Source: Thunnus thynnus (Eukaryota). From it: DNA of 64,000 bases. This document shows positions 11,603 to 54,769 of the stretch, one piece after another. The notes under the pieces are model-generated. The model ran no database searches and had not been told where the DNA came from. It saw only the letters and a program-made list of their open reading frames with translations. The first letter of the stretch is position 1, and each line of letters starts with the position of its first letter. A program made the translations under genes and the position numbers. The stretch covers positions 28,314,551 through 28,378,550 of the forward strand of contig NC_089527.1 of assembly GCF_963924715.1 (NCBI RefSeq), read 5' to 3'.

Positions 11603-11753
11603 GTACTGGGAAACAAATGAGCCTAATAATGGAGGTGTCGGTGAAGAGGACTGTGCACATATCAGGACTGGCAAGAAAACTGAAGACAACTGGAATGATC
11701 TGTCATGTGATGCTTCTCTGCGGTGGATCTGTGAGAAAAATGCTGGTGTATAA
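11603..11753 (+). CDS. Gene A CTLD exon 3 with stop. Carries an EPN Ca/sugar-site motif.
   Basis: Acceptor ctgtag|g. Encodes (R)YWETNEPNNGGVGEEDCAHIRTGKKTEDNWNDLSCDASLRWICEKNAGV* with EPN, WND and three conserved Cys. TAA at 11751-11753. Confidence 0.8.
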
Positions 11754-13105
11754 TATGTAAAAATGCTTTTTCAAAGCAAACTATGATTTTGCAAAAGGCA
11801 AATCAGTTTGTATGTGTGTGAAATTAAAACTTTTCTCTGCTGTGCTGATGACCTTTTGCTTCTGTTCTGCCTTTTTAAAGAGATTTCTATAAATTAGATG
11901 TTTACAGCTTTTGCCAGAAGAGCTTCATTAACCAATTTCCAATGTTTCAAACAACTAAAAGAAGCAGACAGATAAAACAAAACCAAACCTCTGCAAAATG
12001 CAACAGATTCATAAAAACCTTTATTTTGATTTATGTCTTAGCTAAAGATTTCATGATAGTTGAAAGTTGCAAAAAACCTGATTGAGACCATTTCTTATGA
12101 CATCCCTCATATCATAATTAAACAATGTAATATAGATTTTGTGTAATTATGTCTTATTATATCATTAAATGACGCTTTCCTGAAAATAATTTTTAAATGA
12201 AGTCTGTTCAGCAGCTGACAGATCTCTTTAGCAGAGGCCATCAGTGTTTGTGAATTTTACTTGATAATTAGTGGTTTCACTCAGGAAACACTTGCTGTTG
12301 TGAGAGAATTATCAAATTATTTTAGATGAAATGTAAACCAAAACTATTCAACAGATGAGTCAATATAAAGTCAGTCAATTACAACATATCAGCACTGTAC
12401 TGGAGTCAGACGTTTGTCATGATGTCCTTTGTAATGCTGGTAGCTGATACTGGTTGTGGCTTTTTATGTAATTATGAAAACAATTAAAATCTTTTTAAAA
12501 ATTGAATATTTTTCAGTGTCTTTATGTTTCTTTTATCATCATTAATAGTGCAGAAAAACCCTGTTCTACTGGGATGTGAGAGGTCAGCTACAGATGGGGA
12601 TTTCATTCATTCAAAACTGAACTTGGTTAAAAGATGATCTGTCTTTTCACCACACTCTCATGCTGTATTCAACAGGCACTAAGTGAAGAAAACAACTCTA
12701 ACAATGAAACAGAACATCCTGTATCTCAATCTAGACAATCTACTGGATGAGATCTGAGACTGTCTTCACCAGAAAAATAAAAGCACTGGTTGTTTGTACA
12801 AGTGACTTGAGGAAGAGTTCAGGTGGACAGGTGGGTCAGCAAACCATGTGGCTTTGACATGAGAGATGGCTGTTCTTTTGTTTACTTAACTAAAACTACT
12901 TGCTTGGAGTTGAGGAAGGATTGTCTTCATGGTTCAAAGTAACCAACGTTGACTGTTAGACAGGACCATTTGTACACCTACCATCCATCACAACCTCCAC
13001 CTCCAAGCATTAAGGTTCCCCAGAACTGTCTTTTGTGTCTATAGACCAGCTGCATGTGGACTTAATTGTCAAATGTAATATTGCGCTTTATGACACAATG
13101 TAGAT

Positions 13106-14515
13106 CAGGGGTCTCAAATTCAAATTACCTGGGGGCTGCTGGAGGCAGAATCTGGGTGAGGCTGGGCCGCATCAGGTATTCCACAAAAGCTTAGCGGGCG
13201 CAGGCTAGGATAGTAGGCGCAAAAAAGGCGACTACTACCGGGTTGTTCATTACCCGCCGTGCTTTTGTTGTTGTAAACGTCGTCATAGAAACAAGTGAAA
13301 CAAATGGCATCATAAAGAAATATCTTATAATGTTTATTGTGCAAGGCATTTACTATGGAGTAAAATGTTTTGAGGAATAAATCTCTTTCCGCAAATGATT
13401 CAGTACATTTCATTCACCCAAAAGATGTTTTCAAATAATTTGTCCATGAATGTCACATCATTGCAGAGCAAACGTGGAGAACATGAAGCCGGGACAGTGG
13501 GACACCATTATGCCATGGTTTGCACCTCCATGGCTGCAAACCATGGGATGCAGCCATGGAGGTGTTATTTATTGGCTTTTATTTCCTATAATAACTCCAT
13601 GGATGCAGCGGGCGCTGTGAAGCTAGCAGCGTTGTCAAATCAAATATGACGTGTGGCACAGCAGCATCAGCTGTACGGTGTTTTGTTACACTCTGTATTT
13701 ATGATCTCTGACGGATAAACATAAGTGTGTTCATGGAAACGCATGTATTAACTTTTAGTTCACTTCACAACGTGGCATTATGTGACAGAAATATGCACAT
13801 ACATTATTATCTGCCAGACTTATAAAGACGCAGATACACCTGGTTCTGTTTTTTTAATGTCACACACTGTGGAATCACATGCACGAGCCTCATTTGCCGT
13901 CACAGTGAGCCAAAAATGGATGTAAAGTTCTTTATACCTCCGTTTGTACGTCAACGGTTGTGTCCGTTCCGCTCATCAGACCTCAGTGAGAATTACGCAC
14001 AGGCTCTCCAACAGCTGATCATTACGCACGGCTGCTGTGGATATTTGAAACGACTTTACCCCTAATTCATCACATTTTTCTGCAAACCGTCACCACTGTT
14101 AAGTGTCAGTCATCATTATTAAACATCAGAAGAATGATAAATGATTTATTGATAGAGCTCCTGTTGAAACGGACTTTACAAAGTGCTTCAAAACAAAATG
14201 AAGTGATCGTTAACAGAGAGATGATGCTGAAATAAACAGAATGATGCTTTAATAAGGTTTAATAATTCACCTTTGAATTTTACTGAGAGCTGTTCTCAGC
14301 GCACATTCTTCCTGTATAAATAGCATAGTTGTTGTGAAACAGCCATATACCCCTGTGATTGGCAGGTTCGTTCAGCTACAGCTTGTGCAATAAAGGGACC
14401 TTCCACACACCACACAGTAAAGTGCCATTCATATAAAACTCGCGGGCCGCACTAACATTAAACTTTCATATCAAGGTGGGGGCCACAAAATATCAGCCCG
14501 AGATTGAGACCCATG
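13106..14515. mobile_element. Non-autonomous hAT-like DNA transposon, copy 1.
   Basis: Terminal inverted repeats CAGGGGTCTCAAATTC ... GATTGAGACCCATG. No transposase ORF. About 1.4 kb. Internal palindromes are present. Confidence 0.6.
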
Positions 14516-14519
14516 CGTT

Positions 14520-16471: not shown

Positions 16472-16613
16472 AGAAAACTTGTCCCGCAGGATGACGTATG
16501 TTCAGTTTTACTTGTTATCTCATCTCCACTAAATCTGGTTCTTGGAAAAAGGCAGAAAAGACTGCAGAGCCAGAGGAGCAGATCTGGTGGTCATAGACAG
16601 TTATGAAGAACAG
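16472..16613 (+). pseudogene. Gene A' pseudo CTLD exon 1.
   Basis: Homologous to 10010-10152 but TGG is changed to TGA (CPAG*RMF), there is a 1-nt deletion, and a downstream in-frame TAG. Splice sites retained. Confidence 0.7.
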
Positions 16614-16621
16614 GTATTCTG

Positions 16622-16623
<2 letters not shown>

Positions 16624-16672
<49 letters not shown>

Positions 16673-16673: not shown

Positions 16674-16798
16674 CTGATAATGTTGACTGTCTACCCTAGA
16701 CTGTAATTAGACATGTATGTCCTGGAAGAGGGTTCCCTCCTTTGCTGCTCTTTATTTAGGTTTCTCATGTGTTTTTTTCTTTCCTTCACATTGAACAG

Positions 16799-16902
16799 GA
16801 ATTCCTCACTAATATTACAAAGCAAGAAAGTTGGATTGGTTTGAGTGACAGAGAAAAAGAGGGAACCTGGAAATGGACAGATGGAACTCCACTGACTCAG
16901 GC
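16799..16902 (+). pseudogene. Gene A' CTLD exon 2 of a second subfamily. Open frame, but part of a disrupted gene.
   Basis: Acceptor ttgaacag|ga, donor ggc|gtaagg. Encodes EFLTNITKQESWIGLSDREKEGTWKWTDGTPLTQ. Differs from the A/B/C exon 2 (TFLTTFT...). Confidence 0.6.
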
Positions 16903-17465: not shown

Positions 17466-17501
<36 letters not shown>

Positions 17502-19130: not shown

Positions 19131-19207
19131 CTACTGGGCGATGAAGCAGCCTGATAAAGGAGATTGAGATTCGAAATGGGGAGAAGAAGACTGTGCGACA
19201 ATCAGAG
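19131..19207 (+). pseudogene. Gene A' CTLD exon 3 remnant (5' half only). Homology ends about 110 bp before the ERV LTR.
   Basis: Reads YWAMKQPDKGD*..GEEDCATIR, homologous to YWxxNQPDNG..GEEDCVHIR. Preceded by the homologous intron end (tcatgattctc...). Homology stops at about 19207. Confidence 0.6.
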
Positions 19208-19317
19208 CTTTGGTGACAACTACAATAGTAGAGCTTAAGTCCCTTAAACTTTTTCAAGTCATTATCACTACAGATGTAATCCCACCTCCGACCACAATGT
19301 GGGTTACAATGACAGGG

Positions 19318-19500
19318 CACTGTCTCCAATGAATTTTATTTTCTACATCTTCCTCTTTACAAATATAATGCTGAACTTCCTTTAACCTTAGCTGATGAGT
19401 CTGCTGATGTTGCAGAGTTGCAGTACAAGACAGGAACAATTCATCATGATCTATGTAAAATACACACACATACACAGTGTAATCATAATTTTAATAACAT
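19318..19500 (-). repeat. ERV 3' LTR (at least its U5-side part).
   Basis: Matches 27150-27335. The U3 extent is uncertain because similarity decays beyond 19500. Confidence 0.55.
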
Positions 19501-20152
19501 GTCCTTCCTGTTTGTACTCTTAAAAAATACAAAAATACAATAGTATAAAAATTTCTTGTAAGTAGAGGAAAAGAAAAATACAATTAATTCAAACGAGAAA
19601 ACCACAAATGATTCAAATGAGTATATATGAATGATTCAAATGATTAACATAATAAATGATTACATAGTTGCATGATTCTCTTGACAACAGATGTGGAAGC
19701 AAAAAAAACCTGTCAGGCAGTTCTTTATCATTCTTTTCATTTTCGTGTGTTTCTTTCGGACAGGAAAAATTCTCCTCACAACCCCGCTGCCCCAGCGGCC
19801 ATTAATCAGTGTCAATAAGTGTTTCAATCACATTTGTATGCTTAATCACATGTCACAATTTTAGAGACTTCAATTCTGACAATAGCCATTGTATATGAAC
19901 ATTTCTTATATATTCCAAAAAAAACAAAAAAACAAAACTTGTCCTCAGTCAGGCTGATCGACTCATTGGACCCTATGTGTGGACCTTCCCCTGCCTAAGG
20001 TCCTTCTACCTGATATGTGAAAGAAATAGAAAACCTATAAATGTATATACAACATACTGTCAGTCTTTTTCTCTTAAGCATACATTACATAAGAACACTA
20101 TAACTTCCCTTCAGATTTTCTATAAGTTCGTCATTATGCTGTGGAATAAAGA

Positions 20153-21017
20153 CTAAACAGGTGTCTCATCTCCAGCAAGTGTCACATCTCCAATGTGTTC
20201 ATAGATGGACTCCTCTCTTGCTTCGAGCTGAACATACTCTCCGTAGATCTCTTCATCTCCGTGTCTAACCCCGACATGTCCTCCGACCACAACATGTCTC
20301 TCGTAATCGTTATCTGTGGAGACAGGCTGATACAATAGCTGTTGCCACGTTAGTGTAGTAGTAATCAATTTTTGCATTAATTCTCTCAGACATGGAATGC
20401 AACAACAAGTAACTAGAAAGGCAAGCATGATTCCCACAGACAATATTATGGCTTTAAAGGTGTTTTCCCATTTCCTAAACATGTCCTCCAGCCACCCAGT
20501 GAAAGGATCTGTGATACCTGAATTCTCCGCAGTACCACCACGTATCTGAACATTCATATTCGTGATTGGTAACCAAGTCATCAGTAATCCTATTGCGATT
20601 CTTACTCACTGCAACTGTAGTGCCACAACCTGTCAGATCTCCCATTTCTTGTCCTCCATTCAATCCACGTGTTCTGGACAGGCAGATATAATTCCCCTTG
20701 TATGGCATAAACCATGGTGGAATAACCTTAGTGGAGACAGCTGGAAACAGATACTTGAGAGTGGTACAGTTATTTCTAGGAGAGTCAGTTTTATGTAGAC
20801 TGAGCATACACTTGAATCCTTGAAGATCATTGTGAGGATTAAGTGGAAAAGGAACTGTTCCCAATGATGGTCTTGCAGCTGCACAAACTATGCAATCAGT
20901 TGCTAGTCCGGAACCCTTAGTGGTGAAAGAAATCCATTGTAACCATAGCTGTTTCTTACTCCAGGCGAGCAAAGCTCTTCCTCCTGGAGTCTGATGAACT
21001 GGTACACGGTTTAACAC
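20153..21017 (-). pseudogene. ERV env (SU plus TM), frameshifted.
   Basis: The SU part is Cys-rich and includes a CIVC (CXXC) motif. The TM part has a membrane anchor AIILSVGIMLAFLVTCCCIPC followed by a cytoplasmic tail. Two ORFs overlap at 20475-20581. Confidence 0.6.
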
Positions 21018-21067
21018 TACAAATGTGTAATCTTCAGCAGTTGTCGTTGACTTGTTTATATTGTTTA

Positions 21068-22084
21068 TTACTTATCTGTAGGTATTGGTGCTCGTTTACA
21101 GTGTGTCAGGTGTAGCCACGTCATTCTCTCAGCTATGCGCACTGCTGTGGGTGTTGCGAGTAGCACTTGGAATGGGCCTTCCCACCTTGGAGAGCTCCAG
21201 TTCTTCCTTTTGAGCATTTTGGTGAAAACCCAGTCTCCTGGCTTCACAGGTGTCGTTTGGTCAGAGACTGGCTCTGTGGGTGAGAGGACTGTAGACATAG
21301 TCTCTTTGTTTTTCAACATCCTGCTCATATAATCTACAATCGTTTCTGTTAATTCTGTGTCATCTCCCTTTAAGTTAATCAAAGGTACTCTGTAGGGTCT
21401 ACCATATAGGATTTCAAAAGGTGATTGTCCTGTATTGTTAGGCTGTATGTGAAGGCTTAACATTACTGCTGGCAAACAGGTTATCCGTCCTTTCCCTGTG
21501 TCTTCCATGGCTTTCCTGAGTTTAGCCTTGATTGTACCATTTGCTCTTTCCACTAATCCTGCTGACTGTGGATGATAAGAACAATGATATTTCATTTTCA
21601 TGGAAAATATTTCACTTAGTTTAGCAATTACATCATTTCTGAAATGAGGTCCATTATCACTATATATAATTTCTAGAAACCCAAATCTCGGTGCAATATG
21701 TGTTACTAGAGCTTTCACTACTGTTATTGCATCACTTCTTACTGTTGAAATGACTTCAATCAATTTTGAATATAAGTCTATGATTACTAAGCAGTATTTT
21801 TTGTTTTCACATTTATTCAATTCAATGAAATCCATGCGTACTGTGTGAAATGGGATTTGTGCATTGGGTATCCTGCCTGATCTTGGTTTCAATTTACCTT
21901 GAACATTCTGTTTTCCACACACTACACATGATGCACAAAAAATTTTTGCATAATTTTGGAATCCATAGGTTGTATATATTTTGTTTATTAGTTCATACAT
22001 ACCTCCAGTTGATGTATGGATCAACCCATTCATCAATACTGCTGCAAATCGAAATAAATTCTTTGGAAGAATGTACTTTCCCAC
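21068..22084 (-). pseudogene. ERV integrase.
   Basis: A 338-aa ORF containing an HHCC-type zinc finger (..HTSTG..C..C), the catalytic-core residues (VRMDFIEL, YSDNGPHF) and a C-terminal SH3-like region. Confidence 0.8.
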
Positions 22085-22262
22085 TAGTCATTTCCATAAT
22101 TCATATTCAGATAATTTCACCCCTTTCTTTGCCCAAAACTGTCTCTTTGAGTCAGGTGAGCTATGTTTTATGTCTTTTAAAATGTCATGATCAATGTGTG
22201 AAATTTGCTCAGCTGTGTATATGTCTTGGTTTTCTTGTCTAGCAGCAGCTGCTTTCGCTTCC

Positions 22263-23208
22263 TCATCCGCCTTCCTGTGAGATTAAGTCATCTCCTGAAG
22301 TGTGAGCAGCACACTTACATACTTCTATCTGCAGTGGCAATTGTACAGCCTCTAATAAGGCTGAAATCAAATCAGTGTGTAAAATTGGCTTTCCAGTGGA
22401 CGTAATCATACCTATTTTTCCACTGTTGTGCGAAAATATGTAAGGTGTTAAGAGCATATGCACTATCAGTATAGACAGTTACTCTCTTTCCTGCTCCTAA
22501 CTTGCATGCTTCAGTTAGTGCAATCAGCTCTGCTGCTTGAGCTGAGAAATGGGGTGCAAGTGCTTTTGATCACAGTACTTTGTCTATAGTTACCACTGCA
22601 TAACCACTACTATTTGTTCCGTCCGGATTCTTTTTGCATGAGCCATCTACAAACATCACTACGTCTGGGTTTTGTAACGCCACATCAGTTAGATCTGCTC
22701 TAGGTAATACTTTTTTCGTTGCTTCAGCCACACAATCATGTTTGGTGCCTTCTGTTTCGTTTGGAAGTAGTGTTGCCGAATTTAGAGTTGTACACCTGTC
22801 AATAGTTAGGTGAGGCTGAGAGAGTAGAATGGTCATGCAGTTAAGATGTCGAGCTACAGCGTGTGACACTTTCAGTGTTAATGGATGAAATAAGATGATT
22901 GTGGCTGAACTTTGTATTGCTAGGGCTGCTGCTTGTACAGCTTGCAAACACTGCAGCATCGCTCTAGCTATTGGATCTAGTTTAGATGAATAATATGCCA
23001 CAGGTCTAAGTTTCCCTCTTAATGGCTGGGTTAACACACTGGTTATAAACCCACCTCTAGCATCACATGTTTGTACAAAAACTTTCCTATAATCTTGAAG
23101 TGCCAGTATTGCTGAACTCACAAACAGTTGTTTTATTTGCAAAAATGCATGTTCTCCCTCTGGAGTCCGTGATAACATCATTGGCGGCCATGGGTCATAG
23201 ATAAGCAT
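22263..23208 (-). pseudogene. ERV RT connection / RNase H.
   Basis: VMFVDGSC...GYAVVT at the RNase H N-terminus, with a C-terminal CKCAAHTSG. A frameshift lies between the two ORFs. Confidence 0.65.
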
Positions 23209-23400
23209 TTGAAGTTGGTGTGTTACTTCAGCATAGTTTGCAATCCACGCTCTTCAGAAGTTAGTCATCCCTAGAAATTACATAATTTGTCTTTTTGTCT
23301 GCGGTTTGGGTGCTTGTAATATTGCTGTTTTCCTATTTTCATCTAGGTGTTTGCTTTCAAAAAAGATATTAAAACCTAAATATTTCACTGTCTTTTTCCA

Positions 23401-24075
23401 TTATTGTAATTTGTTCTTGCTTACTTTATGGCCCTGTTCTGCCAAATATTTTAATAGCGCAATAGTATCAATTTTACAATCCTGTTCATTTCCTGACGCG
23501 AGTAAAATGTCATCAACATATAATAACAGTTGGCTCCCCCTTAGGGAAGTGAATTGTGCTAAGTTGGATGACATTGCCATTGAAAAGATCGTCGGGCTTT
23601 CACAATGTCCTTGTGGGAGTCTTGTGAATGTATACTTTTTACCCCTGTATTGAAATGCAAACCAAAATTGATCTTCCTTATGGAGCAGAACAGAGAAAAA
23701 TGCATTAGCTAAATCTATCACTGTTAAGTATTTAGCTTATGGATTACATTCATTTAACAGCGTGTGTGGGTCTGGAACGAGGGGAGCACGTGGTATTACT
23801 GCTTTATTTACTGCCTGTAAATCCTTTACCATCCTCCATCCTGTTGATGGGGCTGCCTTTTTTACGGGGAACAGGGGGCTATTGCATGCTGCATCTGGGC
23901 ACTCCCTGATAACTCCTACACTTTGTAGATCTTGTATTATCGGTGCAATCCCCTCTTCCGCCTCTAGTTTAAGTGGATACTGTCTCTGATATGGCCTGTA
24001 AGAGCCTTTTGGAGTTTTTTTAACTGGTTGTATTCCTTTAATAAGTCCTACATCAGCTGATCCTTTGGACCACAA
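23401..24075 (-). pseudogene. ERV reverse transcriptase.
   Basis: RQYPLKLEAEEGIAPIIQDLQSVGVIRECPDAACNSPLFPVKKAAPSTGWRMVKDLQAVNK, followed by LLYVDDILLAS (YVDD box) in the next ORF. This is MLV-like RT architecture. Confidence 0.85.
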
Positions 24076-25244
24076 CTTTTGAGGTACACTGTTTAGGTCT
24101 AACTCTTCTTTGTCAGTGTCATGGGTTCACCATCTTAGTGACTATTTTTCATGTTGTTCACCTGCCTGATCTCTAACTCTCCTGTCATTGCAGATCCTGC
24201 CACACCCATCTGCCCTGCAATCACCTCATTCCCCTCACCTGAGTTTCCACACCCATCTCCTCACCTGGATTCCATTAGGCTCATCAGTCATTCCTTATAT
24301 ATACTGGTCCATATTCACATGCTCCTTGCCAGATTGTTTGCCTAGCTTTCCAGCATTTCTATATCTACCTGTTCGCTCGCCTGTTACCTGAGATCCTGCC
24401 TGTTTCCCGGTCTTGAGATTTGCCTAGTCCTTTTGAGTTGTCTGCCTGATCTGCCTGTCTGCCTGGTTTGTGACCCCTGCTTGGTTTTTTTTTTTTGGAC
24501 TGATTAAAGAATATTGGACTCTGCTCCTGTCTCTGAGGATGTGCTTTTGGGTTCTGAGGTTCTGAGTCGTTACAGTCAGTTAGATTGAATCAGGCAGTGG
24601 TAAAGTCTAGGCTGGTTTCTCCACTGAGGTGAACCGCTTGTACCGTTTGTGTTACCCAGTTCAGGTGGGTACAGTACACATTTAATTTGGGTGCAAATAA
24701 CACTCTCTCTCTCACCTCCTGCCACTCACAGTTTGATCTCTCTATTTTTGAAACAAACTCGCCTAAATCTTTCCACTGCATCTCTTGGGTTTGTAAACAG
24801 GAAATGTGCGGTGTCAGGCTTCCTCAATAGTTTTGCCTTTGCTTTTCGGAGGCTCACCGCGCAAGCACAGTTTCCTTTTTGGTCCCAATACAGTTTGGTG
24901 ATAGTCATTTTGCAGCTGGATTCTTTAAAGAACTTTTCATGATATTCTCTGTCTTGTTCATTTTGATGTGGAAAGTACATTGTGCAATGTAACTCTTCGG
25001 GTGTGTGCGCTTCAATATTTTTTATTTCAGCTGGAGGAATGCGGTCTTTTACCAATTTCATTAGCTCCTGAGTTATACTTCCTGGCCCAGTTTGAACTAA
25101 ATCCAAACTGTACCAGTAATTTAACGTCAGTCCTTCGCACACAAATGTTTCTGTGTCGTCCTCTTCATCACTGTCGGTTGTTTTTAGGTTAACTTGGCAG
25201 GCTTTAGTACCAGAGCCATTTTGATCTGGTACTCCAGCTATCCC

Positions 25245-25420
25245 TAATTTCGTCATCAAATCTCTTCCTAAGAGCTTAACGGGACACATTTGTGATATTA
25301 CCACTGAGGCATATATGTTTTTGTTTGTTTTGGGATCTTTTTATTTTAGAAGTTCAGTTAATGGTTCAATAGTCACATGTCCTGTGGCTGATCTAACCCT
25401 TAAACCGCCGTTTGGTTTTA
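25245..25420 (-). pseudogene. ERV protease remnant.
   Basis: LCDSGAC (D-S-G active-site motif) at about 25420, and a C-terminal LLGRDLMTKLG motif at about 25277-25245. Interrupted by a stop. Confidence 0.5.
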
Positions 25421-25867
25421 GGGTAAAATCTGTCCCTGTTTAATTACGTCGCACAACTGTTCAGCAAGCTCCAGAATCACATAAGAATGTTATTGATTTA
25501 CCCCGTACCTTTAATACTATCTATGGTTTAGTCCCTTCCTGTGATAGTAAAATTTCAGCTGTTTGTAATGATAGGATTTCATCTACCTCTGTCTCCCTAT
25601 CTGCTAGTGTGTGTGTGTGTGTGTCGGTGTTCCGGAGCCAGTCATACAGAGTAGTTTCTTTCCTGTTCTTCTTGTCTGGGTTTCGCTCCTCCGCTCCCTC
25701 CTTTCCCCCGTCCTCCTCCTCTCTCGCCTCCTAATTTCTTTGGAGCTCTGCAGTCTTGTGCATACTGTCAAGGTTTGCCACAATTACATTTATATTTTTC
25801 ATTTAGCAGATGCTTTTATCCAAAGCGACGTACATATGAGACTGATACAACACAAGCAAGGATCTAG

Positions 25868-26807
25868 TCAGGAGACAACAACACAAGTAAGTGCCATAAA
25901 GCTTAAGTTTGGGCCCGATAGGATGTAGATGCCAACAGGCAGTGCAACAAGGCAATGATTAGAGTGCATAGAAGTATGTTTTTTTGTTGTTGTTGTTTTG
26001 GGGTTTTTTTGTTTTGGGTTTTGTTTTTTTTCTATCCTAGTGTCATCATTATCATGCAAGAATGTATCTACAACCTTTCTTTTCTTTTTCTTTGCTTCAA
26101 TCATTTCTTCTGCATGGGTTGCATAATCAATGGTTCTCTGCAACCCTGCATTTTTCCAGGCAATCAGATGTTTGGCCACAAATTGGCTGATTTCTGGTCT
26201 AAATCCAATCATTTTTTAATTGCATACTGTATGGACTATGTCAGTTTCTCATTCATGTGTACAGTATGTAAGTAGCTGTATACTGTACCACTTCGTGTAC
26301 TCCGAAGAAACTGAGGATCTTGTGAATGCGTCTCTCCTTTCCGTGGTGTGATGTCAACCTTCGTGAAGGGGTTGTGGGGTGAGAAGGCAGGAGGTGGAGC
26401 AGTCAGCAGTGGAGGAGGAGGAGGTGGTCAAGGTTCGGGGTAAGGCGGAGGATCCGGACGGGACCCACATGGCACGTAGCTGTCATCATTCTGCCAGTCT
26501 TGTTGTCTAGCAACCCTTTCTTCTTTCTTTTCTGAAAACCAGTTCATCTGGCTCTTGCTTCTGTCAGCCATGACTTGGCCTGTAGCAGACCTTCTTTCTT
26601 TGACTTCCCCTTTTTCCCTTTCGTTCCTTCTGAAATTGCCTTTACTAATTCTTCGCAAGCTTCTACGTCTAGTTTTCCTACAATGTCATACTTTTCCTGC
26701 CATATCTTGAGATATTTAACATAATCAGGATGGAGTAGTTTCATGCGTTTGGCGTCTCTACCATATTTCTCTGCTTGTGGTATTTTACAGCTACAACAGT
26801 TACCCAT
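25868..26807 (-). pseudogene. ERV gag (fragmented).
   Basis: Gag begins MGNCCSCK at ATG 26807-26805 (myristoylation-type N-terminus). A PPPY late-domain motif lies at about 26451-26440 in a shifted frame. Basic KKKRK tracts are present. Confidence 0.65.
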
Positions 26808-27149
26808 TGTAGAGGCCTCTTTTTTTTCTCTTTTCTTTTTTTCTCTTTTTTTGTATGTGGTAAGGCTATTTAATTTCCTTGTTTTCCCCTTAACAGCCAA
26901 CCAGTTTGTATGGAGTTCACCTGAGCAACTGGTCTGATCAGTGAAATTGTGTTCTTGTAAGGCCTTTCTCAGGTCCATTGCCTTTTGAGGACCTAACACT
27001 GAGTGCCAAAATGTTAAAAGAATTTCTTCGTAATGACCATTAAACAATAGAGACTGGAACTGAAGTATCAAAATTCAGTAGAATTTATTTTCTTGCACAA
27101 GAATGAGCGTTTCAGGATGAGATAACAAAGAAAAGATAACTTGTCTCAC

Positions 27150-27335
27150 CCTGTCTCCAACGAATTTTATTTTCTACATCTTCCTCTTTACAAAAATAAT
27201 ACTGAACTTCCTTCAACCTTATCTGATGAGTCTGCTGATGTTGCAGTACAATACAGGAACAATTCATCATGATCTATGTAAAATAGTAACACACATACAC
27301 AGTGCATTCATAACTTTTATAACAACCTAAAACCA
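27150..27335 (-). repeat. ERV 5' LTR (at least its U5-side part).
   Basis: Matches 19318-19500. The adjacent PBS-like sequence reads TGGAGACAGGGTGAGACA on the minus strand. Confidence 0.55.
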
Positions 27336-27905
27336 TTAAGACATACTTTAATGAGTAAATGAATATGCTAGAAAAGAAGGCATCAAACATGTCTGTATAA
27401 AATTCTTGTATTATCATTTTTGAAATATCATAAAAAATATAACCATATAATGTAACATTAAAAAGGAATTGATTCATTTAAAACATCTGTAGCAATCTCT
27501 CCCTCAGTGTGTGGAAAGTTTTGGCTTTTGGCCTTGCGGTTGACAGATGTGTGTGTTTGTGCAGATAGTGTTCTACCTGACCGAAGTTCCTGTTGTTTCT
27601 GAGTCTCACGTTTTACCTGCAAGACTTGTGTTTTAATGCTGTTGTTCATCATTTGTGATGAGAAAACATCGGAGAAATAAAAAGTTTGTGCCCTGGTTTT
27701 AGCCTCTCCTGCCGGCTGCTGACAGCGCTGTCAGCTGGAGAGTCACTCACACTGGACGGTAGAGGAGGAGACACAGAGGAATTAGTACACGTCAGTTTAG
27801 TCAACTTCACTGTATTTAACATCGGAGCTGAGAGCATCAGAACTCAGAGCAGGAAACACAGTCACTCTGCATCACACTACTGCTGTCCTCTGATTCCATC
27901 ATCAG

Positions 27906-27910: not shown

Positions 27911-27948
27911 GAGGAAACTCTGACACTCAGTCGGCCGACCAGTGGTGT

Positions 27949-28133: not shown

Positions 28134-28179
28134 ATGGAAGAAATCTATGTTGATACCAAACATTCAACAATTCAGACAG
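28134..28179 (+). CDS. Gene B exon 1 (start codon, cytoplasmic tail).
   Basis: ATG at 28134 preceded by an in-frame TAG at 28107. Encodes MEEIYVDTKHSTIQT. Donor cag|gtaaga. Ends in phase 1. Confidence 0.6.
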
Positions 28180-28280
28180 GTAAGAATATTCAGTCAGACA
28201 GAGAGGCTGACAGACTGAGCTGTGAATAGTATGTTTTAATTGTATGATTGATTGGATTCACTGGTCTTTTCTCTGTTCAG

Positions 28281-28382
28281 GTCCGAAGACTTCAGAGAGG
28301 AGATTTCATGGAGCTGTTCTTGTCTTTCTGGGGCTGCTGAGTGTTTTCCTGCTGGCTGGACTCATCGGCCTCAGAGTCTACT
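28281..28382 (+). CDS. Gene B transmembrane exon.
   Basis: Acceptor ctctgttcag|gt, donor tact|gtgagt. Encodes GPKTSERRFHGAVLVFLGLLSVFLLAGLIGLRVY. One 22-residue hydrophobic helix following a basic RR, which fits type II membrane topology. Confidence 0.75.
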
Positions 28383-36632: not shown

Positions 36633-36779
36633 ACTCCGTTATCATAAACAACCTGATTGAGCGTCTCCAGGACAGTAATAACAAGCTTTCTTCCGTGTCT
36701 GAAGAGAGAGACCTGCTGCTTGCCAACCTCACTGAAATAACTAAAGAGATGGAAAAGCTTCAGAGTTTGTCTGTACAGA
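36633..36779 (+). CDS. Gene B neck exon 2 (147 nt).
   Basis: Acceptor tttgatttcag|ac, donor caga|gtgagt. Encodes ..SVIINNLIERLQDSNNKLSSVSEERDLLLANLTEITKEMEKLQSLSVQ. Confidence 0.7.
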
Positions 36780-41303: not shown

Positions 41304-41446
41304 AGAAAACTTGTCCTGCAGGATGGAGGATGTTCAGACGTTCCTGTTATCTCCTCTCCAGTGAGTCTGGTCCCTGGTCAAGAGGCAGACAGGACTGCCG
41401 AGAGAAAGGAGCAGATCTGGTGGTTATAGACAGCACTGAAGAACAG
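41304..41446 (+). CDS. Gene B CTLD exon 1.
   Basis: Encodes (K)KTCPAGWRMFRRSCYLLSSESGPWSRGRQDCREKGADLVVIDSTEEQ. Acceptor gttacag|ag, donor cag|gtacag. Confidence 0.8.
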
Positions 41447-43075: not shown

Positions 43076-43179
43076 ACATTCTTGTCTACCTTCACTGAGG
43101 TAGAAACTTGGATTGGTTTGACTGACAGAGACGAAGAGGGAACCTGGAAATGGATTGATGGAACACCACTGACTTTAAG
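43076..43179 (+). CDS. Gene B CTLD exon 2.
   Basis: Encodes TFLSTFTEVETWIGLTDRDEEGTWKWIDGTPLTL. Donor aag|gtttgg. Confidence 0.8.
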
Positions 43180-43790: not shown

Positions 43791-43953
43791 GTACTGGAGG
43801 TCAAATCAGCCTGATAATGGAAATGGAGATCCGCAGTGGGGTGAAGAGGACTGTGTACATATCAGGGCTGAGGGGAAAACTGGAGACAACTGGAATGATC
43901 TGTCATGTGATACTTCTCTGCAGTGGATCTGTGAGAAAAATGCTGGTGTATAA
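43791..43953 (+). CDS. Gene B CTLD exon 3 with stop. Carries a QPD motif.
   Basis: Encodes (R)YWRSNQPDNGNGDPQWGEEDCVHIRAEGKTGDNWNDLSCDTSLQWICEKNAGV*. TAA at 43951-43953. Confidence 0.8.
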
Positions 43954-46358: not shown

Positions 46359-46410
46359 ATGGAGGCAATTTATGCAAATGTTGACTCAATAACTTCAACA
46401 AAACAGACAG
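46359..46410 (+). CDS. Gene C exon 1 (start codon, cytoplasmic tail).
   Basis: ATG at 46359 preceded by an in-frame TAG at 46338. Encodes MEAIYANVDSITSTKQT. Donor cag|gtaaaa. Confidence 0.6.
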
Positions 46411-46489
46411 GTAAAAATGTTGCACAAAGATCTAAATTATCATCTGTTCTTTTGTTGTATCATTGACTATTCACTGTTTCTCTGTTCAG

Positions 46490-46591
46490 GTCTGGGGAGC
46501 TCACAGAGGAGATTTCATGGAGCTCTTCTTGTCTTTCTGGGGCTGCTGAGTGTTTTCCTGCTGGCTGGACTCATCGGCCTCGGTGTCCACT
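46490..46591 (+). CDS. Gene C transmembrane exon.
   Basis: Encodes GLGSSQRRFHGALLVFLGLLSVFLLAGLIGLGVH. Acceptor ctctgttcag|gt, donor cact|gtgagt. Confidence 0.75.
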
Positions 46592-47515
46592 GTGAGTCTG
46601 TTTCACATTCAGAAGTTTAAGTCAGACTGAATTTAGGAGGAACATTCTACAGCAAGATGTCTATTTTTCTTTTCCATTTATGTTGTACTGCTCTGCTTAT
46701 TCTCAGCCAAACTCTGCAGGTAGAGGTCTGGATGAACATGAGCATCACCTCAACTTTCTCCTTGGTGCCATATTTTAAACCATGTTTGAATGCTGGTGTA
46801 GGTCATATGTGTCATGTCTTTGATCTCTGGACACCTGCATGGACTTGTTTCAATGATGTTTCATAAAACTACATTAATAACAGGGAAAATATTCTCCCAT
46901 GTATCTGTATGTAAACGCCATTTTGCAGGTGAAAAAAAAAAAACCTTTAAGGTTACTATGTGGGACAATACTTCAAATCTAAAAACATTCAGTTTGCTTG
47001 TAAAATTGTACTGGCACGGATACATGTCACGCTTTATTTTTATTTTTTTACTAGGGCTAAATGTTGGTGAACCTGTTGTGAGAAAACATCAGGGTGGCAT
47101 AGTATTTACAACATGTGCTGTATGTGCTGGGCTGCTCAGTGTCAAACACCAGGACTGCTTTTATGTCGTAGTCAAGGCTGGATGAAATCTGGAAAAAACT
47201 TGCTTAGATGCTTAGAATAACTTCTTGAGATCTGGATCCTTTGCTCTGTAAAGTTCTGCTCTGTTCAGACTGGTTTTGTTTTGTTCCATTTTGCTGTGCC
47301 TGCACACCTTTATTACAGAGACTTTCTTCTGTTCATTCTGGCTGTTTTGTCCTACATTTGGGTTCACCTGCTCCACTACTCCTGACAGCTATTTGCTTTA
47401 AAATGATACTGGAAGCTGTAATTACTAAAAATGTACATTTTAAAAGTTTTAAAATGGTATTTGAGATAAGTGACTGAATAAACATAAATTTGACCTGTCT
47501 TTTGATTTATTTCAG

Positions 47516-47683
47516 ACCACAGTGTGCGCAGTTCAGCTGAAGATGTCATAGACAACCTGACTGAGCGTCTCCAGGACAGTAATAACAACCTTTCTTCCGT
47601 GTCTGAAGAGAGAGACCTGCTGCTTGCCAACCTCACTGAAATAGCTAAAGAGATGGAAAAGCTTCAGAGTTTGTCAGTACAGA
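47516..47683 (+). CDS. Gene C neck exon (168 nt, single copy).
   Basis: Encodes (Y)HSVRSSAEDVIDNLTERLQDSNNNLSSVSEERDLLLANLTEIAKEMEKLQSLSVQ. Acceptor tttatttcag|ac, donor caga|gtgagt. Confidence 0.7.
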
Positions 47684-52075: not shown

Positions 52076-52218
52076 AGAAAACTTGTCCTGCAGGATGGAG
52101 GATGTTCAGATGTTCCTGTTATTTCCTCTCCAGTGAGTCTGGTTCCTGGTCAAGAGGTAGACAGGACTGCAGAGAGAAAGGAGCAGATCTGGTGGTTATA
52201 GACAGCACTGAAGAACAG
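52076..52218 (+). CDS. Gene C CTLD exon 1.
   Basis: Encodes (K)KTCPAGWRMFRCSCYFLSSESGSWSRGRQDCREKGADLVVIDSTEEQ. Confidence 0.8.
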
Positions 52219-53890
52219 GTACAGAGTGTTTGTTTGTATGCTTGCAAAGAAGCTATGCCTAATTGCAATCTTCCTGTACCTTGAAAAAAGCTAAAATACT
52301 TACTTATTAATTAAGTAATTAATTGATTTATATGGATCATTGGTGTTCAACACCTTGACAACAATAATTCAAATGATTTGAATGAACTTGTGCTGCTCTG
52401 TAGCATGTTTTGCTGGTATTCTTAAGTTTGCACATTTGCCTTAAAATCAAAGTATTTCATTGCATCTTTAGCAAGCTAGCTAACATTCTTTTAACCTTTC
52501 ACTATGTTTTAATCAAACTCCAGAAGCAATCACTCATACACTGCAAGTATTTAATCAGTACAAATCTGTGTATCAGTTTAAGAAAAAACATGATGATGTC
52601 TGGCAACAGGACTTCTGTATACAGTAATTTATGCACAATTTAATGACATTTCTTATTCCCTGATTCTTGAGAAAGATGAAGTTTATAAATAAAAATAGTT
52701 ATTAATAAGAATTCAAATAGTGCTAACACTAGCAGTCACTACATAAATGTGCTTGTAAATGAGGACAAATACAGGTCAGTCTGGGGGAATCAGTTCCCAC
52801 CAGGGGTGCAACAGATCACAAAACTCACAGTTCAGATCGTATCATGGTTTTGAGTCACGGATCGGATCATTTTTCGGGAAAGGAGAAAAAAGAAAAAGGA
52901 GACAAATATAACTTTGCTTTCCATTTATTCTGTAAAAGACTTAAAGCAAGGAACTTTTGCCAGTGGTCTTCTGTGAAAATATTCAAAATCTCCAATATTT
53001 AAATAAAACCTTAAAATATATCAAATATTCAGTACGAAATTGTTAAATTAAAATGCAATATGAGGCATGATACCTTTTTCTTTTAATCATGGTAGTGAAT
53101 GAAAAAATAGCCTGTGTCCACATCATCAAAACTTGATGATAACTTACAAACATGAGCACACGTCTTGTTTTGCAGTTTAGCTTGTTGAATGAGCCACCAA
53201 ACAAACATTCACCAGGGAAAAGTGCACCGCTAATGTCAGTCAGCAGCTAGATCACTAATTAGCTGCTCAGCTGCAGCACATTAAACATCATGTTAACATA
53301 GCTGCAGATGTCACTAAGGACCCACTAGATGCTGGTTTGGTTGTTGTTCTTCAAAATCCTGTTAGTGGCACGCTGTCTGTCCATGACTTGTAGCTACATC
53401 AGTTTGTTGACTTTGTCTCCAATGAGACATTACATTTTGCAGTTTATCCGCGGTTCACATTCATGCTGAACTGTGGGAGGCGATTCATACAGATCACAGA
53501 TCAACTACGTTCCATTACACCACTAGCTTCTACTAAGCTTTGTGCTGTCAATATTTTTTTTGTTTTGTTTTGTTTTCATTTAGTTTATCTATTTGTACAA
53601 ATAACAAGACACAACAACCCATAATGCATTAAAGGATTAAAGAAGGACTGTACAAGTGAGATTTTGAAAAAAACAAAAGGGCACCTCAAAAAAGTTTTTT
53701 TAAATGAATCTAAAATTTAAGTTTATCAAACAAGAAAAAAATATGATAATGATTATATTATTATATTTCAATAATAATAATGTTAAATGGATTCTTATCA
53801 AATATGTTCAGAGTAATCCTATGTAAACTGCATATTGTTGTTCAAACAACAATATAAATAATATGACTTTTTTCCCTTTTTTGAAAACAG

Positions 53891-53994
53891 ACATTCTTGT
53901 CTACCTTCACTGAGGTAGAAACTTGGATTGGTTTGACTGACAGAGACGAAGAGGGAACCTGGAAATGGATTGATGGAACACCACTGACTTTAAG
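53891..53994 (+). CDS. Gene C CTLD exon 2.
   Basis: Encodes TFLSTFTEVETWIGLTDRDEEGTWKWIDGTPLTL. Confidence 0.8.
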
Positions 53995-54606
53995 GTTTGG
54001 CTTCAGTTGGTTGTTTATTGACAACATACACAATCACTGCTGTATATTAGAGGTTGGTGATATGTATTAAATCTTCTATCACAGACAATGTGAGGTGACT
54101 GGCAGTTCCAGGTTGGTCTGAAGCTTTTCTGGTTAAATCATCAGTGCAAAATGATAATCATGAGAAAAAAATCAAACCAAACTACCATTTCATGGTGTAT
54201 CTGAGACGGAGTTTCTGGTCCACAGTCAAGTTTTACACTTCACCAACTGTACAGTACTGTAACTGATGACCAGAACACTATGGGGGTGTTTATTTATACA
54301 GGAGGCTCCTTTGTTGCTATTTGATGACTGCAAATTTATATTTAGGAAAAATACTACAGTGAACCTGCAGCCCTGTTCAATTTGCTACTTTATAGCTCAA
54401 AACTATACTAAGGCACATCATGCAAGATAGAATAAATTCCATTCTGTGATGTTTGTGAAGAAATATTATTTACAACCCTACTTCTTGCCAGGAAGAATAA
54501 GTACAATGAATAGTATGAGACACATTCAGTTTTCTTATGTTCCAGTGAAGGACTGTGTTCATGTCAGAGATTAAGTGTCACGATTCTCTTGTTCACTGAC
54601 ATGTAG

Positions 54607-54769
54607 TTACTGGGCAACAAATCAGCCTGATAATGGAAATGGAGTTCCGAAGGTCGGTGAAGAGGACTGTGTACATATCAGGTCTGGCAAGGAAACTGAA
54701 TACAACTGGAATGATCTGTCGTGTGATGCTTCTCTGCGGTGGATCTGTGAGAAAAATGCTGGTGTATAA
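54607..54769 (+). CDS. Gene C CTLD exon 3 with stop. Carries a QPD motif.
   Basis: Encodes (S)YWATNQPDNGNGVPKVGEEDCVHIRSGKETEYNWNDLSCDASLRWICEKNAGV*. TAA at 54767-54769. Confidence 0.8.

What the first reader, a model, noticed from the sequence alone, without database searches (positions are those of the whole stretch)
11603..54769. Paralogs differ at the primary sugar-binding tripeptide: EPN in gene A versus QPD in genes B, C and the A' remnant
Exon 3 of gene A encodes ..TNEPNNGG.. with WND. This is the EPN motif that is established to confer mannose/GlcNAc/fucose specificity in C-type lectins. The otherwise near-identical exon 3 of B (43791-43953) and C (54607-54769) encodes ..NQPDNGNG.. 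and the A' fragment reads ..KQPDKGD.. (19131-19207); QPD is the classic galactose/GalNAc-type motif. B and C also carry a 4-codon insertion next to the motif. Tandem duplicates in one locus therefore appear to have diverged in predicted ligand class.
Basis: partly seen in the sequence, partly recalled or inferred. Interest (0 to 1): 0.65.

Follow-up and report, generated by a model that had tools for sequence, protein, structure and literature searches.

The report
Tuna lectin paralogs with different sugar motifs
A tandem array of tuna immune lectin-receptor genes really does contain one copy with the mannose-type EPN motif next to copies with the galactose-type QPD motif, but motif switching like this is common in this fish gene family, so the finding is real and fairly ordinary.

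Summary
The window is a tuna tandem array, about 1.3% diverged from Thunnus maccoyii. It encodes CD209-like/CLEC4-like type II membrane C-type lectin receptors. Gene A's last exon encodes EPN...WND. Genes B and C, and the A' pseudogene, encode QPD. All calcium-site-2 ligands are intact.

- "Exon 3" is the last of 6-7 exons.
- The 4-codon difference is a deletion in A, not an insertion in B and C. QPD with a 10-residue loop is the family majority (150 of 181 QPD domains) and the inferred root state.
- The exon is not "otherwise near-identical". It is the most diverged part of the repeat. Nonsynonymous divergence is 8-15%, against about 3% in flanking non-coding DNA (p from 5e-3 to 7e-8).

The T. 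maccoyii ortholog of gene A has a nucleotide-identical last exon, which rules out sequencing error. Among about 105 homologs, QPD and EPN switched at least 12 times. EPN copies tend to lose the loop tryptophan and shorten the loop, as gene A did.

Verdict: genuine binding-site diversification, probably driven by selection, in a known kind of immune gene cluster. The ligand classes are predicted, not shown.

The parts
4541..4687 (+). Gene A, neck exon 1 (147 nt; SVVINNLTEVLQYSNNNLSSVSEERELL...). The cytoplasmic and TM exons of A lie 5' of the window.
   Evidence: tblastn with Thunnus proteins; AG/GT boundaries read; unit homology with B places the TM exon upstream of position 1.
5304..5450 (+). 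Gene A, neck exon 2 (147 nt tandem duplicate of the neck exon).
10010..10152 (+). Gene A, CTLD exon 1 (KTCPAGWRMFGCSCYF...STKEQ).
   Evidence: canonical AG/GT.
10856..10965 (+). Gene A, CTLD exon 2 (TFLTTFTDEETWSWIGLTDRDKEGTWKWIDGTPLTS). It carries a 6-nt 'WS' insertion relative to B and C.
   Evidence: 110/110 nt identical in T. maccoyii.
11603..11753 (+). Gene A, last exon. EPN is at 11619-11627. The 12-nt deletion point is about 11634-11640 (loop NGGV). The Glu of E-D-C is intact. WND is at 11691-11699. The stop codon is at 11751-11753.
   Evidence: 151/151 nt identical in the T. maccoyii ortholog.
16472..16613 (+). A' pseudogene, CTLD exon 1 (CPAG*RMF: TGG to TGA stop, plus a frameshift).
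16793..16897 (+). A' pseudogene, CTLD exon 2.
19132..19222 (+). A' pseudogene, 5' part of the last exon. QPD is at 19147-19155 and an in-frame TGA at 19165-19167. The exon is cut off at about 19223 by a retroelement insertion.
   Evidence: The T. maccoyii A' ortholog (L005 53118) shares the stop but keeps ...DNWNDLSC. The window matches L005 only up to 19224.
19223..27600 (-). Degenerate LTR retroelement (integrase and RT/RNase H ORFs) inserted between A' and B. The 3' limit is approximate.
   Evidence: ORFs. Window 19223-22512 is 97.6% identical to a copy elsewhere in the T. maccoyii array. The element is absent at the orthologous site in L005.
28134..28382 (+). Gene B, cytoplasmic exon (28134-28179, MEEIYVDTKHSTIQT) and TM exon (28281-28382).
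35853..36779 (+). Gene B, two neck exons (35853-36020 and 36633-36779).
   Evidence: the intact 290-aa ORF model.
41304..41446 (+). Gene B, CTLD exon 1.
43076..43179 (+). Gene B, CTLD exon 2.
43791..43953 (+). Gene B, last exon. QPD is at 43807-43815, followed by the 10-residue loop NGNGDPQWGE (with Trp). WND is at 43891-43899.
   Evidence: The peptide of exons 2+3 is 100% identical to T. thynnus P0135.
46359..47683 (+). Gene C, cytoplasmic exon (46359-46410, MEAIYANV...), TM exon (46490-46591) and neck exon (47516-47683).
   Evidence: the intact 243-aa ORF model.
52076..52218 (+). Gene C, CTLD exon 1.
53891..53994 (+). Gene C, CTLD exon 2 (identical peptide to B).
54607..54769 (+). Gene C, last exon. 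QPD is at 54623-54631, followed by the 10-residue loop NGNGVPKVGE (no Trp). WND is at 54707-54715.
   Evidence: The same loop occurs in T. albacares P0007.
58070..64000 (+). C', a fifth copy of the A' type. Cytoplasmic exon at about 58070, TM exon 58188-58292, neck exon 60207-60353, CTLD exon 1 at 62483-62625 with the same CPAG* stop, exon 2 at 62965-63069. The last exon lies beyond the window.

Best explanation
The window holds part of a large tuna tandem array. The array spans at least 310 kb in T. maccoyii. It encodes the teleost-specific CD209-like/CLEC4-like receptors, which are type II membrane proteins. Each has a short cytoplasmic tail, a TM helix, a repeated coiled-coil neck and one C-terminal calcium-dependent carbohydrate-recognition domain.

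The ancestral binding site of this family is QPD followed by a 10-residue Gly-rich loop that usually carries a Trp (QPDNGGGDPxWGEEDC). This is galactose-type by the EPN/QPD rule. Gene B keeps that state. Gene C keeps QPD and the loop length but has lost the Trp.

Gene A has changed in three ways:
- Q to E and D to N, by two single-base changes (CAG to GAG, GAT to AAT).
- The loop Trp is lost.
- Four loop codons are deleted, giving EPNNGGVGEEDC.
This is a compact site, closer to the loop length I recall for DC-SIGN. It is predicted to coordinate the equatorial 3- and 4-OH groups of Man, GlcNAc, Glc or Fuc through calcium site 2.

The paralogs arose before the split from T. maccoyii. Since then each copy has been conserved. 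Between copies, the loops around the sugar site have diverged several-fold faster than neutral DNA. The likely cause is diversifying selection for a broader repertoire of glycan (pathogen) recognition. Cassette-like exchange of CTLD exons among array members may also have contributed.

Shown here: the sequences, gene models, orthology, substitution excess and family-wide pattern. Inferred: the ligand classes, the immune role and selection as the cause.
For: - Motifs and intact site-2 and site-1 residues. Family-wide invariance of P91, E99, C101, W114 and D116.
- Domain identity: Pfam Lectin_C, E from 1e-24 to 2e-25.
- Structure: AF2 models have pLDDT 90-91. Best structural matches are Mincle, DC-SIGN/DC-SIGNR, SRCL and MGL CRDs. 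A fits the compact Mincle CRD better than B does (TM-score, normalised by query length, 0.91 at rmsd 1.4 against 0.82 at rmsd 2.4).
- Gene models: intact type II receptor ORFs for B (290 aa) and C (243 aa).
- Tandem repeat structure.
- Ancestral state: 181 QPD against 28 EPN among 209 homologous CTLDs, with 150/181 QPD domains carrying the 10-residue loop. Fitch reconstruction on an NJ tree with motif and loop masked gives a QPD root and 12 switches, 12-14 in bootstraps. The older A' paralog is QPD with the long spacing.
- Coupled changes: loop Trp is present in 112/181 QPD domains but 4/28 EPN domains (p = 2e-6). The full-length loop is present in 150/181 against 15/28 (p = 2e-3).
- Focused divergence in the last exon: pN is 15.0% (A-B), 8.4% (A-C) and 13.9% (B-C), against 2.8-3.1% in flanking non-coding DNA (p = 1e-7, 5e-3, 7e-8). 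pS is not significantly raised. dN/dS is 1.6-2.65. Variable sites are packed into 11603-11722.
- Orthology and conservation: window 3-16780 is collinear with L005 34854-51766 at 97.1-98.3% identity. Gene A's exon 2 (110/110 nt) and last exon (151/151 nt) are identical there, while non-coding mismatch is 1.28%.
- Literature: tandem expansion of the DC-SIGN subgroup in fish (PMC514892). EPN is not conserved among fish Mincle-like proteins, with QPD and EPD variants (PMC11929736). Converting a mannose-type CRD to galactose binding needed QPD, Trp and a 5-residue Gly-rich loop (PMC2704901).
Against: - No binding data exist for any of these proteins.
- The EPN/QPD rule has exceptions. CEL-IV has EPN but binds galactose through a stacking Trp.
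- The fish loop Trp lies 8 residues after QPD. In CLEC4F it directly follows QPDN (QPDNW), and from memory ASGR1 and SRCL are similar.
- Thunnus also has EPN copies that keep the long loop and the Trp (P0124, P0127), so the coupling is a tendency and not a rule.
- dN/dS above 1 is not significant on its own, because there are only 1-3 synonymous differences per exon. The selection argument rests on the comparison with flanking non-coding DNA.
- B-C pS in the last exon is 3.2 times the neutral rate (p = 0.07), so some imported (gene-converted) sequence is possible.
- Gene A's 5' exons are outside the window, so its full ORF was not checked here.
- The association tests are not corrected for phylogeny.
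Confidence: 0.75

Rival explanations
1. The motif difference is real but does not change ligand class. All copies would bind overlapping glycans or non-carbohydrate ligands, with specificity set by secondary sites, the neck or oligomerisation. On this reading the EPN/QPD switch is nearly neutral within the family.
For: Documented exceptions to the motif rule (CEL-IV). Frequent toggling (at least 12 switches) could mean the change is cheap. Thunnus EPN copies with an otherwise QPD-type loop (P0124, P0127) differ from QPD neighbours (P0001) by little else.
Against: In mutagenesis of MBP-A the tripeptide swap changes monosaccharide preference (Drickamer 1992, from my own knowledge; GalMBP summary). 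EPN copies preferentially lose the loop Trp and shorten the loop (p = 2e-6 and 2e-3), which is not expected if the switch were neutral. Gene A's exon is nucleotide-identical between species.
Confidence: 0.17
2. The clustered differences come mainly from gene conversion or exon-cassette exchange with more divergent array members. No positive selection on point mutations would be needed, and the high apparent dN would be imported divergence.
For: The array is a mosaic. B and C have 5' modules only 75% identical but CTLD regions about 95% identical. T. thynnus P0135 carries B's exact exon 2+3 peptide behind an unrelated neck. The positional ortholog of B in T. maccoyii differs at 11 of 45 residues of the last exon. 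Which pair of copies is closest changes along the unit. B-C pS in the last exon is mildly raised.
Against: Imported tracts should raise synonymous and nonsynonymous differences equally, but pN exceeds pS in all three pairs. The differences stop sharply at the coding loops, and the 3' end of the exon and the adjacent UTR are invariant. Conversion also does not explain why binding-site variants are retained while flanks are homogenised, which itself implies selection.
Confidence: 0.07
3. Artefact or decay: the EPN and deletion are an assembly or sequencing error, or gene A is a degenerating copy under relaxed constraint.
For: Tandem repeats about 95% identical are prone to mis-assembly. Gene A's first exons are not in the window. 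Two neighbouring copies (A', C') are pseudogenes.
Against: An identical exon (151/151 nt), with identical exon 2, is present at the collinear position in an independent T. maccoyii assembly, while surrounding non-coding DNA differs by 1.28%. All of A's CTLD exons are open with canonical splice sites. Relaxed constraint cannot push pN to 3-5 times the neutral rate.
Confidence: 0.01

Closest known systems
Teleost 'DC-SIGN subgroup' of group II C-type lectin receptors, annotated CD209 antigen-like A/C/E or CLEC4E/CLEC4M/CLEC10A-like (Fugu DC-SIGN-F1 to F8; Zelensky & Gready 2004, PMC514892)
   Same: Type II topology, a single C-terminal CRD encoded by three exons, tandem clustering and lineage-specific expansion. 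CTLD identity is 55-92%, and Thunnus proteins are the nearest.
   Different: No difference in kind. This array simply has its own copy content. Gene A's 6-residue loop (NGGVGE) is a tuna-specific length variant.
Fish Mincle-like protein (T. rubripes trMincle, PDB 9kpl; PMC11929736)
   Same: An EPN...WND calcium site in a protein annotated CD209-like. About 40% identity, and a structural match to models A and B. That paper already notes that EPN is replaced by QPD or EPD in other fish.
   Different: Mincle identity needs a hydrophobic groove and FcR-gamma coupling. Neither was tested here, and gene A's TM exon is outside the window.
Mammalian CLEC4 / ASGR-MGL / CD209 receptors (DC-SIGN and Mincle with EPN; ASGR1/2, MGL/CLEC10A, CLEC4F and SRCL with QPD)
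   Same: The same fold and site-2 chemistry. The pairing resembles what I recall of these receptors: EPN with a short loop and QPD with a long Gly-rich loop. From memory, B and C have the same QPD-to-EDC spacing (10 residues) as ASGR1.
   Different: Only about 36-42% identity, and no one-to-one orthology. One search shows CLEC4F with the Trp directly after QPDN (QPDNW), whereas the fish Trp sits at loop position 8. In mammals the EPN and QPD receptors are old, well separated genes. They are not 95%-identical neighbours.
Engineered GalMBP (MBP-A mutant QPDWG; Iobst & Drickamer 1994, as summarised in PMC2704901)
   Same: Changing sugar class took the tripeptide swap, a Trp and a 5-residue Gly-rich loop. 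Gene A shows the natural reverse of this: QPD to EPN, Trp lost, 4 loop residues deleted.
   Different: GalMBP is a laboratory construct in a collectin scaffold. The direction of change is opposite, and no binding data exist for the tuna proteins.

Membership tests
C-type lectin-like domain (Pfam PF00059) | Significant match to the Lectin_C profile over the whole domain | tested here: met
   A 90.1 bits, B 87.4 bits, C 87.0 bits, against a cut-off of 22.6; profile positions 3-107 of 107.
C-type lectin-like domain (Pfam PF00059) | CTLD fold with conserved Cys framework and WIGL core | tested here: met
   C3, C14, C31, C101, C119 and C127 plus WIGL are present. AF2 pLDDT is 90-91, and Foldseek TM-scores to Mincle, DC-SIGN and SRCL CRDs are about 0.8-0.9.
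Calcium-dependent carbohydrate-recognition domain (sugar-binding CTLD) | Complete calcium-site-2 ligand set: E/Q-P-N/D, the Glu of E-D/N-C, and the Asn-Asp of WND | tested here: met
   A: E90-P-N92, E99, N115-D116. B and C: Q-P-D, E, N-D. These columns are invariant or nearly so in 53 homologs. The calcium-ligand assignments come from my own knowledge of MBP-A and DC-SIGN numbering.
Calcium-dependent carbohydrate-recognition domain (sugar-binding CTLD) | Demonstrated calcium-dependent sugar binding | not testable with these tools
   Needs recombinant protein.
Group II type II transmembrane C-type lectin receptors (DC-SIGN/CLEC4 subgroup, teleost expansion) | N-terminal cytoplasmic tail, single TM segment, neck, and one C-terminal CRD encoded by three exons | tested here: met
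   Spliced models of B (290 aa) and C (243 aa) are open and have a 23-residue hydrophobic segment, GALLVFLGLLSVFLLAGLIGLGV. For A only the neck and CTLD exons are in the window.
Group II type II transmembrane C-type lectin receptors (DC-SIGN/CLEC4 subgroup, teleost expansion) | Closest relatives are other members of that subgroup | tested here: met
   All 230 retrieved homologs are teleost CD209-like, CLEC4E/M-like or CLEC10A-like proteins.
True CD209 (DC-SIGN) ortholog | One-to-one orthology with mammalian CD209 | tested here: inconclusive
   Mincle, DC-SIGN, DC-SIGNR and SIGN-R1 all score alike at about 40% identity. The literature finds no clear tetrapod ortholog for this fish subgroup.
Mannose-type CRD (gene A) | EPN tripeptide with WND | tested here: met
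   conserved in T. maccoyii.
Galactose-type CRD (genes B and C) | QPD tripeptide with WND | tested here: met
Galactose-type CRD (genes B and C) | Aromatic residue positioned to stack on the apolar face of galactose (Trp after QPD in ASGR1, CLEC4F, SRCL) | tested here: inconclusive
   B has a Trp at loop position 8, which is not the QPDxW position (alignment to CLEC4F). C has Val there.
Mincle (CLEC4E) homolog | EPN plus hydrophobic groove plus FcR-gamma coupling | not tested
   Only EPN was seen (gene A). The groove residues were not mapped, and A's TM exon is outside the window.

The most novel reading that the evidence does not exclude
The tuna array may work as a germline 'cassette' system. 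On this reading, the CTLD exons that encode the sugar-binding loops are exchanged by gene conversion or unequal crossing-over among dozens of copies with different necks and tails. QPD and EPN would then be repeatedly re-assorted, and balancing or diversifying selection would maintain old binding-site haplotypes across species while the surrounding DNA is homogenised. Supporting hints are B's exact exon 2+3 peptide in a T. thynnus gene with an unrelated neck, the strongly different last exon of B's positional ortholog in T. maccoyii, and near-identical EPN and QPD exon contexts among Thunnus paralogs.
Probability: 0.2. Interest if true: 0.5.

Novelty: new member of a known kind. Interest (0 to 1): 0.3.

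Why it matters
If binding assays confirm the prediction, these copies form a natural matched set. They are about 95% identical and differ mostly around calcium site 2. Gene A reproduces, in reverse, the three-part change (tripeptide, Trp, Gly-rich loop) that was needed to re-engineer a mannose-binding CRD into a galactose binder. That would make the set useful for dissecting how C-type lectin specificity evolves. It would also help in annotating fish 'CD209-like' genes, whose names say nothing about ligand. Biologically, the array adds to the picture of teleost innate immunity widening its glycan-recognition repertoire by tandem duplication and rapid binding-site change. It does not open a new kind of system.

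Tried and rejected
- P0049, P0113, P0135 and P0124 are not on record in the contig index. As a result the T. thynnus gene carrying B's exon could not be examined at the DNA level.
- I first took T. maccoyii locus L001 (28.00 Mb), which has an EPN gene with a long loop, as the ortholog of A or B. It is only 94-96% identical and is a paralogous part of the array. The true ortholog is L005 at 97-98% identity. The idea that A's deletion arose after the split from Thunnus was therefore dropped.
- The first neutral-rate estimate was inflated by a misaligned intron, because A has a large indel in the intron between CTLD exons 1 and 2. I recomputed it without that intron.
- A bootstrap script using Biopython distances timed out. 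It was redone with a faster distance calculation.
- From the first 120 homologs the link between EPN and absence of the Trp looked absolute, 0/16. The second search found 4 EPN domains with Trp, so the link was downgraded to a tendency.
- AF2 model coordinates are not exposed, so distances from variable residues or the loop Trp to the calcium site could not be measured.
- Neither protein search gave an exact match, so the source species could not be named.

Full report
**What is in the window.** The sequence is AT-rich vertebrate DNA built from a tandemly repeated unit. Self-comparison shows blocks of roughly 92-97% identity linking 1-17.8 kb, 29-47 kb and 50.7-64 kb.

Translating the cited coordinates confirms the observation exactly:
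- The exon at 11603-11753 encodes RYWETNEPNNGGVGEEDCAHIRTGKKTEDNWND...
- The exon at 43791-43953 encodes RYWRSNQPDNGNGDPQWGEEDCVHIRAEGKTGDNWND...
- The exon at 54607-54769 encodes SYWATNQPDNGNGVPKVGEEDCVHIRSGKETEYNWND...
- The fragment at 19132-19222 reads NYWAMKQPDKGD*DSKWGEEDC, with an in-frame stop.

Each of these exons is preceded by two further CTLD exons with canonical splice sites. The assembled domains match Pfam Lectin_C at E-values from 1e-24 to 2e-25.

**Gene models.** tblastn with the nearest database proteins, together with reading of the junctions, shows that these are type II receptor genes of 6-7 exons. They are not three-exon genes.
- Gene B spans 28134-43953 and gives 290 aa with two neck exons.
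- Gene C spans 46359-54769 and gives 243 aa with one neck exon.
- Both B and C are open from ATG to stop. Each has a short tail, a 23-residue hydrophobic segment, a heptad-like neck and one CRD.
- Gene A has two neck exons and three CTLD exons in the window. Its tail and TM exons lie upstream of position 1.
- A' (16472-19222) and a fifth copy, C' (58070 to the window end), belong to an older paralog type about 80% identical in the CTLD exons. Both share a TGG-to-TGA stop in CPAG*RMF.
- A' is further truncated by an LTR retroelement on the minus strand.

**Family and source.** All 230 homologs retrieved are teleost proteins annotated CD209 antigen-like, CLEC4E/M-like or CLEC10A-like. Thunnus proteins are the closest. 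Solved structures with the best sequence and fold matches are the Mincle, DC-SIGN/DC-SIGNR, SIGN-R1, SRCL, MGL and ASGR CRDs, at about 36-42% identity.

This is the fish-specific "DC-SIGN subgroup of group II". Zelensky and Gready described it as tandemly expanded in Fugu and without clear tetrapod orthologs (PMC514892).

At the DNA level, window 3-16780 is collinear with T. maccoyii chromosome OU343201.1 at about 27.734-27.751 Mb (L005 34854-51766), with 97.1-98.3% identity. Non-coding mismatch there is 50/3919, or 1.28%. The source is therefore a tuna close to T. maccoyii but not identical to it. The five T. maccoyii loci I fetched place array members from 27.70 to 28.03 Mb.

**Is the difference real?** Yes. 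The T. maccoyii ortholog of gene A has the same EPN and the same short loop. Its last exon is 151/151 nt identical and its CTLD exon 2 is 110/110 nt identical. Exon 1 is 140/143 nt identical, while the neighbouring introns differ at 1.3%. It also suggests constraint on gene A: about 3.3 differences would be expected in those 261 nt, and none is seen.

The A' ortholog in T. maccoyii shares the GD* stop, so that copy was already a pseudogene in the common ancestor.

**Which state is ancestral?** Among 209 CTLDs from the two searches, 181 have QPD and 28 have EPN. Of the QPD domains, 150 of 181 have exactly ten residues between QPD and the E-D-C glutamate. The consensus is QPDNGGGDPxWGEEDC.

I built an NJ tree with the motif and loop columns masked. 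On it, Fitch parsimony reconstructs QPD at the root and needs 12 QPD/EPN changes, 12-14 in 15 bootstrap replicates. The older A' paralog also has QPD and the long spacing.

**A recurrent syndrome.** EPN copies in this family tend to lose the conserved loop tryptophan: 4/28 keep it, against 112/181 of QPD copies (Fisher p = 2e-6). They also tend to have shortened loops: 13/28 against 31/181 (p = 2e-3). These tests are not phylogenetically corrected, but the EPN copies fall in about a dozen separate lineages.

Gene A shows all three changes. This mirrors, in reverse, the classical engineering result for rat MBP-A. Making that protein bind galactose required QPD, a Trp and a five-residue Gly-rich loop (PMC2704901).

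The coupling is not absolute. Thunnus has EPN copies with the full loop and the Trp (P0124, P0127). Gene C is QPD without the Trp.

**Pattern of divergence.** The last exon is far from "otherwise near-identical". It is the most diverged part of the unit. There are 24 variable sites in the 120 nt from 11603 to 11722. The flanking intron and 3' flank run at about 3%, and the last 30 nt of the exon plus the adjacent UTR are invariant.

Nei-Gojobori counts for the last exon, against 2.8-3.1% mismatch in 3.2-4.9 kb of well-aligned flanking non-coding DNA:

| Pair | pN | pS | Fisher p (pN vs non-coding) |
|---|---|---|---|
| A-B | 15.0% | 6.7% | 1e-7 |
| A-C | 8.4% | 3.3% | 5e-3 |
| B-C | 13.9% | 9.2% | 7e-8 |

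pS is not significantly above the neutral rate. dN/dS for the last exon is 1.6-2.65, but on its own this is not significant because only 1-3 synonymous differences exist.

The variable residues lie in three places:
- the two positions before the tripeptide,
- the tripeptide and the loop that follows it,
- the beta-hairpin just before WND (IR-x-x-x-x-T-x-x-NWND).

From established CRD structures, these are the segments that surround site 2. I could not verify the distances because model coordinates are not exposed.

**Mosaicism.** The array is not a set of cleanly diverging duplicates.
- B and C have 5' modules (tail and TM exons) only about 75% identical, but CTLD regions about 95% identical.
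- Which pair of copies is closest changes along the unit.
- T. thynnus P0135 has B's exact peptide for exons 2 and 3 (88 aa) behind a completely different neck.
- The positional ortholog of B in T. maccoyii is QPD but differs at 11 of 45 residues of the last exon.
- Paralog non-coding divergence (about 3%) exceeds the species divergence (1.3%), so the duplications predate the split. Exon exchange has evidently continued since.

This mosaicism is the basis for the gene-conversion rival and for the "cassette" reading given as the novel case.

**Structure.** AF2 models built on 53-sequence alignments are confident: A has pLDDT 90.9 and B 90.0. The lowest confidence is in the loop after the tripeptide. 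Both models retrieve group II CRDs. A superposes better on the compact EPN-type Mincle CRD (TMq 0.91, rmsd 1.4) than B does (TMq 0.82, rmsd 2.4). This is consistent with B's extra loop.

**Mechanism, with its status.**
- Shown: the genes encode intact calcium-type CRDs, and site-2 ligands differ only in the class-determining tripeptide.
- Established knowledge (Drickamer 1992 and later structures; my own knowledge): E/N in EPN accept and donate hydrogen bonds to equatorial 3- and 4-OH groups (Man, GlcNAc, Glc, Fuc). Q/D in QPD suit the axial 4-OH of Gal and GalNAc.
- Inferred: A is a Man-type receptor, B is a Gal-type receptor, and C is Gal-type with an altered secondary site. The array would broaden glycan recognition by myeloid or other immune cells.
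- Exceptions to the motif rule exist (CEL-IV), so specificity must be measured.

**Novelty.** Tandem expansion of this subgroup in fish was described in 2004. A 2025 paper explicitly remarks that EPN is replaced by QPD or EPD among fish Mincle-like proteins, "implying different ligand specificity" (PMC11929736). EPN and QPD paralogs within one receptor family are textbook in mammals.

The finding is therefore a new member of a known kind. Three modest additions come from this analysis:
- the polarity of the change (QPD to EPN, with loss of loop and Trp),
- its recurrence, at least 12 times,
- the sharp localisation of excess nonsynonymous change in a 97%-identical background.

A specialist would find these tidy, not surprising.

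Noticed in passing
window 19223-~27600 (- strand): A degenerate LTR retroelement with integrase and RT/RNase H-like ORFs. It is inserted into the last exon of the A' pseudogene and removes its WND-encoding part. The element is absent at the orthologous site in T. maccoyii (L005 ~53210), but a 97.6% identical copy lies elsewhere in that species' array.
   Followed up: partly
window 16472-16613 and 62483-62625; L005 ~53118: A' and C' share the same TGG-to-TGA stop (CPAG*RMF). The A' ortholog in T. maccoyii shares the GD* stop in the last exon. This is an old pseudogene lineage that has been co-duplicated with the functional genes.
   Followed up: partly
window 43076-43953 vs T. thynnus protein P0135; L005 74724: Gene B's peptide for CTLD exons 2 and 3 (88 aa) is 100% identical to a T. 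thynnus protein with a completely different neck. B's positional ortholog in T. maccoyii differs at 11 of 45 last-exon residues. This suggests exon-cassette exchange or array rearrangement.
   Followed up: partly
window 10856-10965 vs 43076-43179 / 53891-53994: Gene A has a 6-nt insertion (Trp-Ser) immediately before the WIGL motif: ETWSWIGL against ETWIGL in B and C. The same variant occurs in several Thunnus paralogs (P0001, P0003, P0124).
   Followed up: no
window 4541-5450, 35853-36779, 47516-47683: Neck-exon copy number and type differ between paralogs. A has two 147-nt exons, B has a 168-nt and a 147-nt exon, and C has one 168-nt exon. The predicted stalk lengths therefore differ.
   Followed up: partly
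window 28134-28179 vs 46359-46410: The cytoplasmic tails differ. C (and C') begin MEAIYANV, a YxxV tyrosine motif. B begins MEEIYVDT, with no hydrophobic residue at +3. The 5' modules of B and C are only about 75% identical, although their CTLD regions are about 95% identical.
   Followed up: no
window 12706-12747, 44900-44941, 55792-55866: Downstream of each last exon lies a short segment encoding ETEHPVSQSRQSTG. This is the C-terminus of a predicted T. maccoyii isoform (P0049) that splices from a donor inside the last exon, just after ...EPNNGGGDPK, and so truncates the CRD. Gene A's 12-nt deletion lies next to that internal donor position.
   Followed up: no
window 10668-10757: A long AAT/ATT-type microsatellite in gene A's intron between CTLD exons 1 and 2. 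This intron is about 900 bp shorter in A than in B and C.
   Followed up: no
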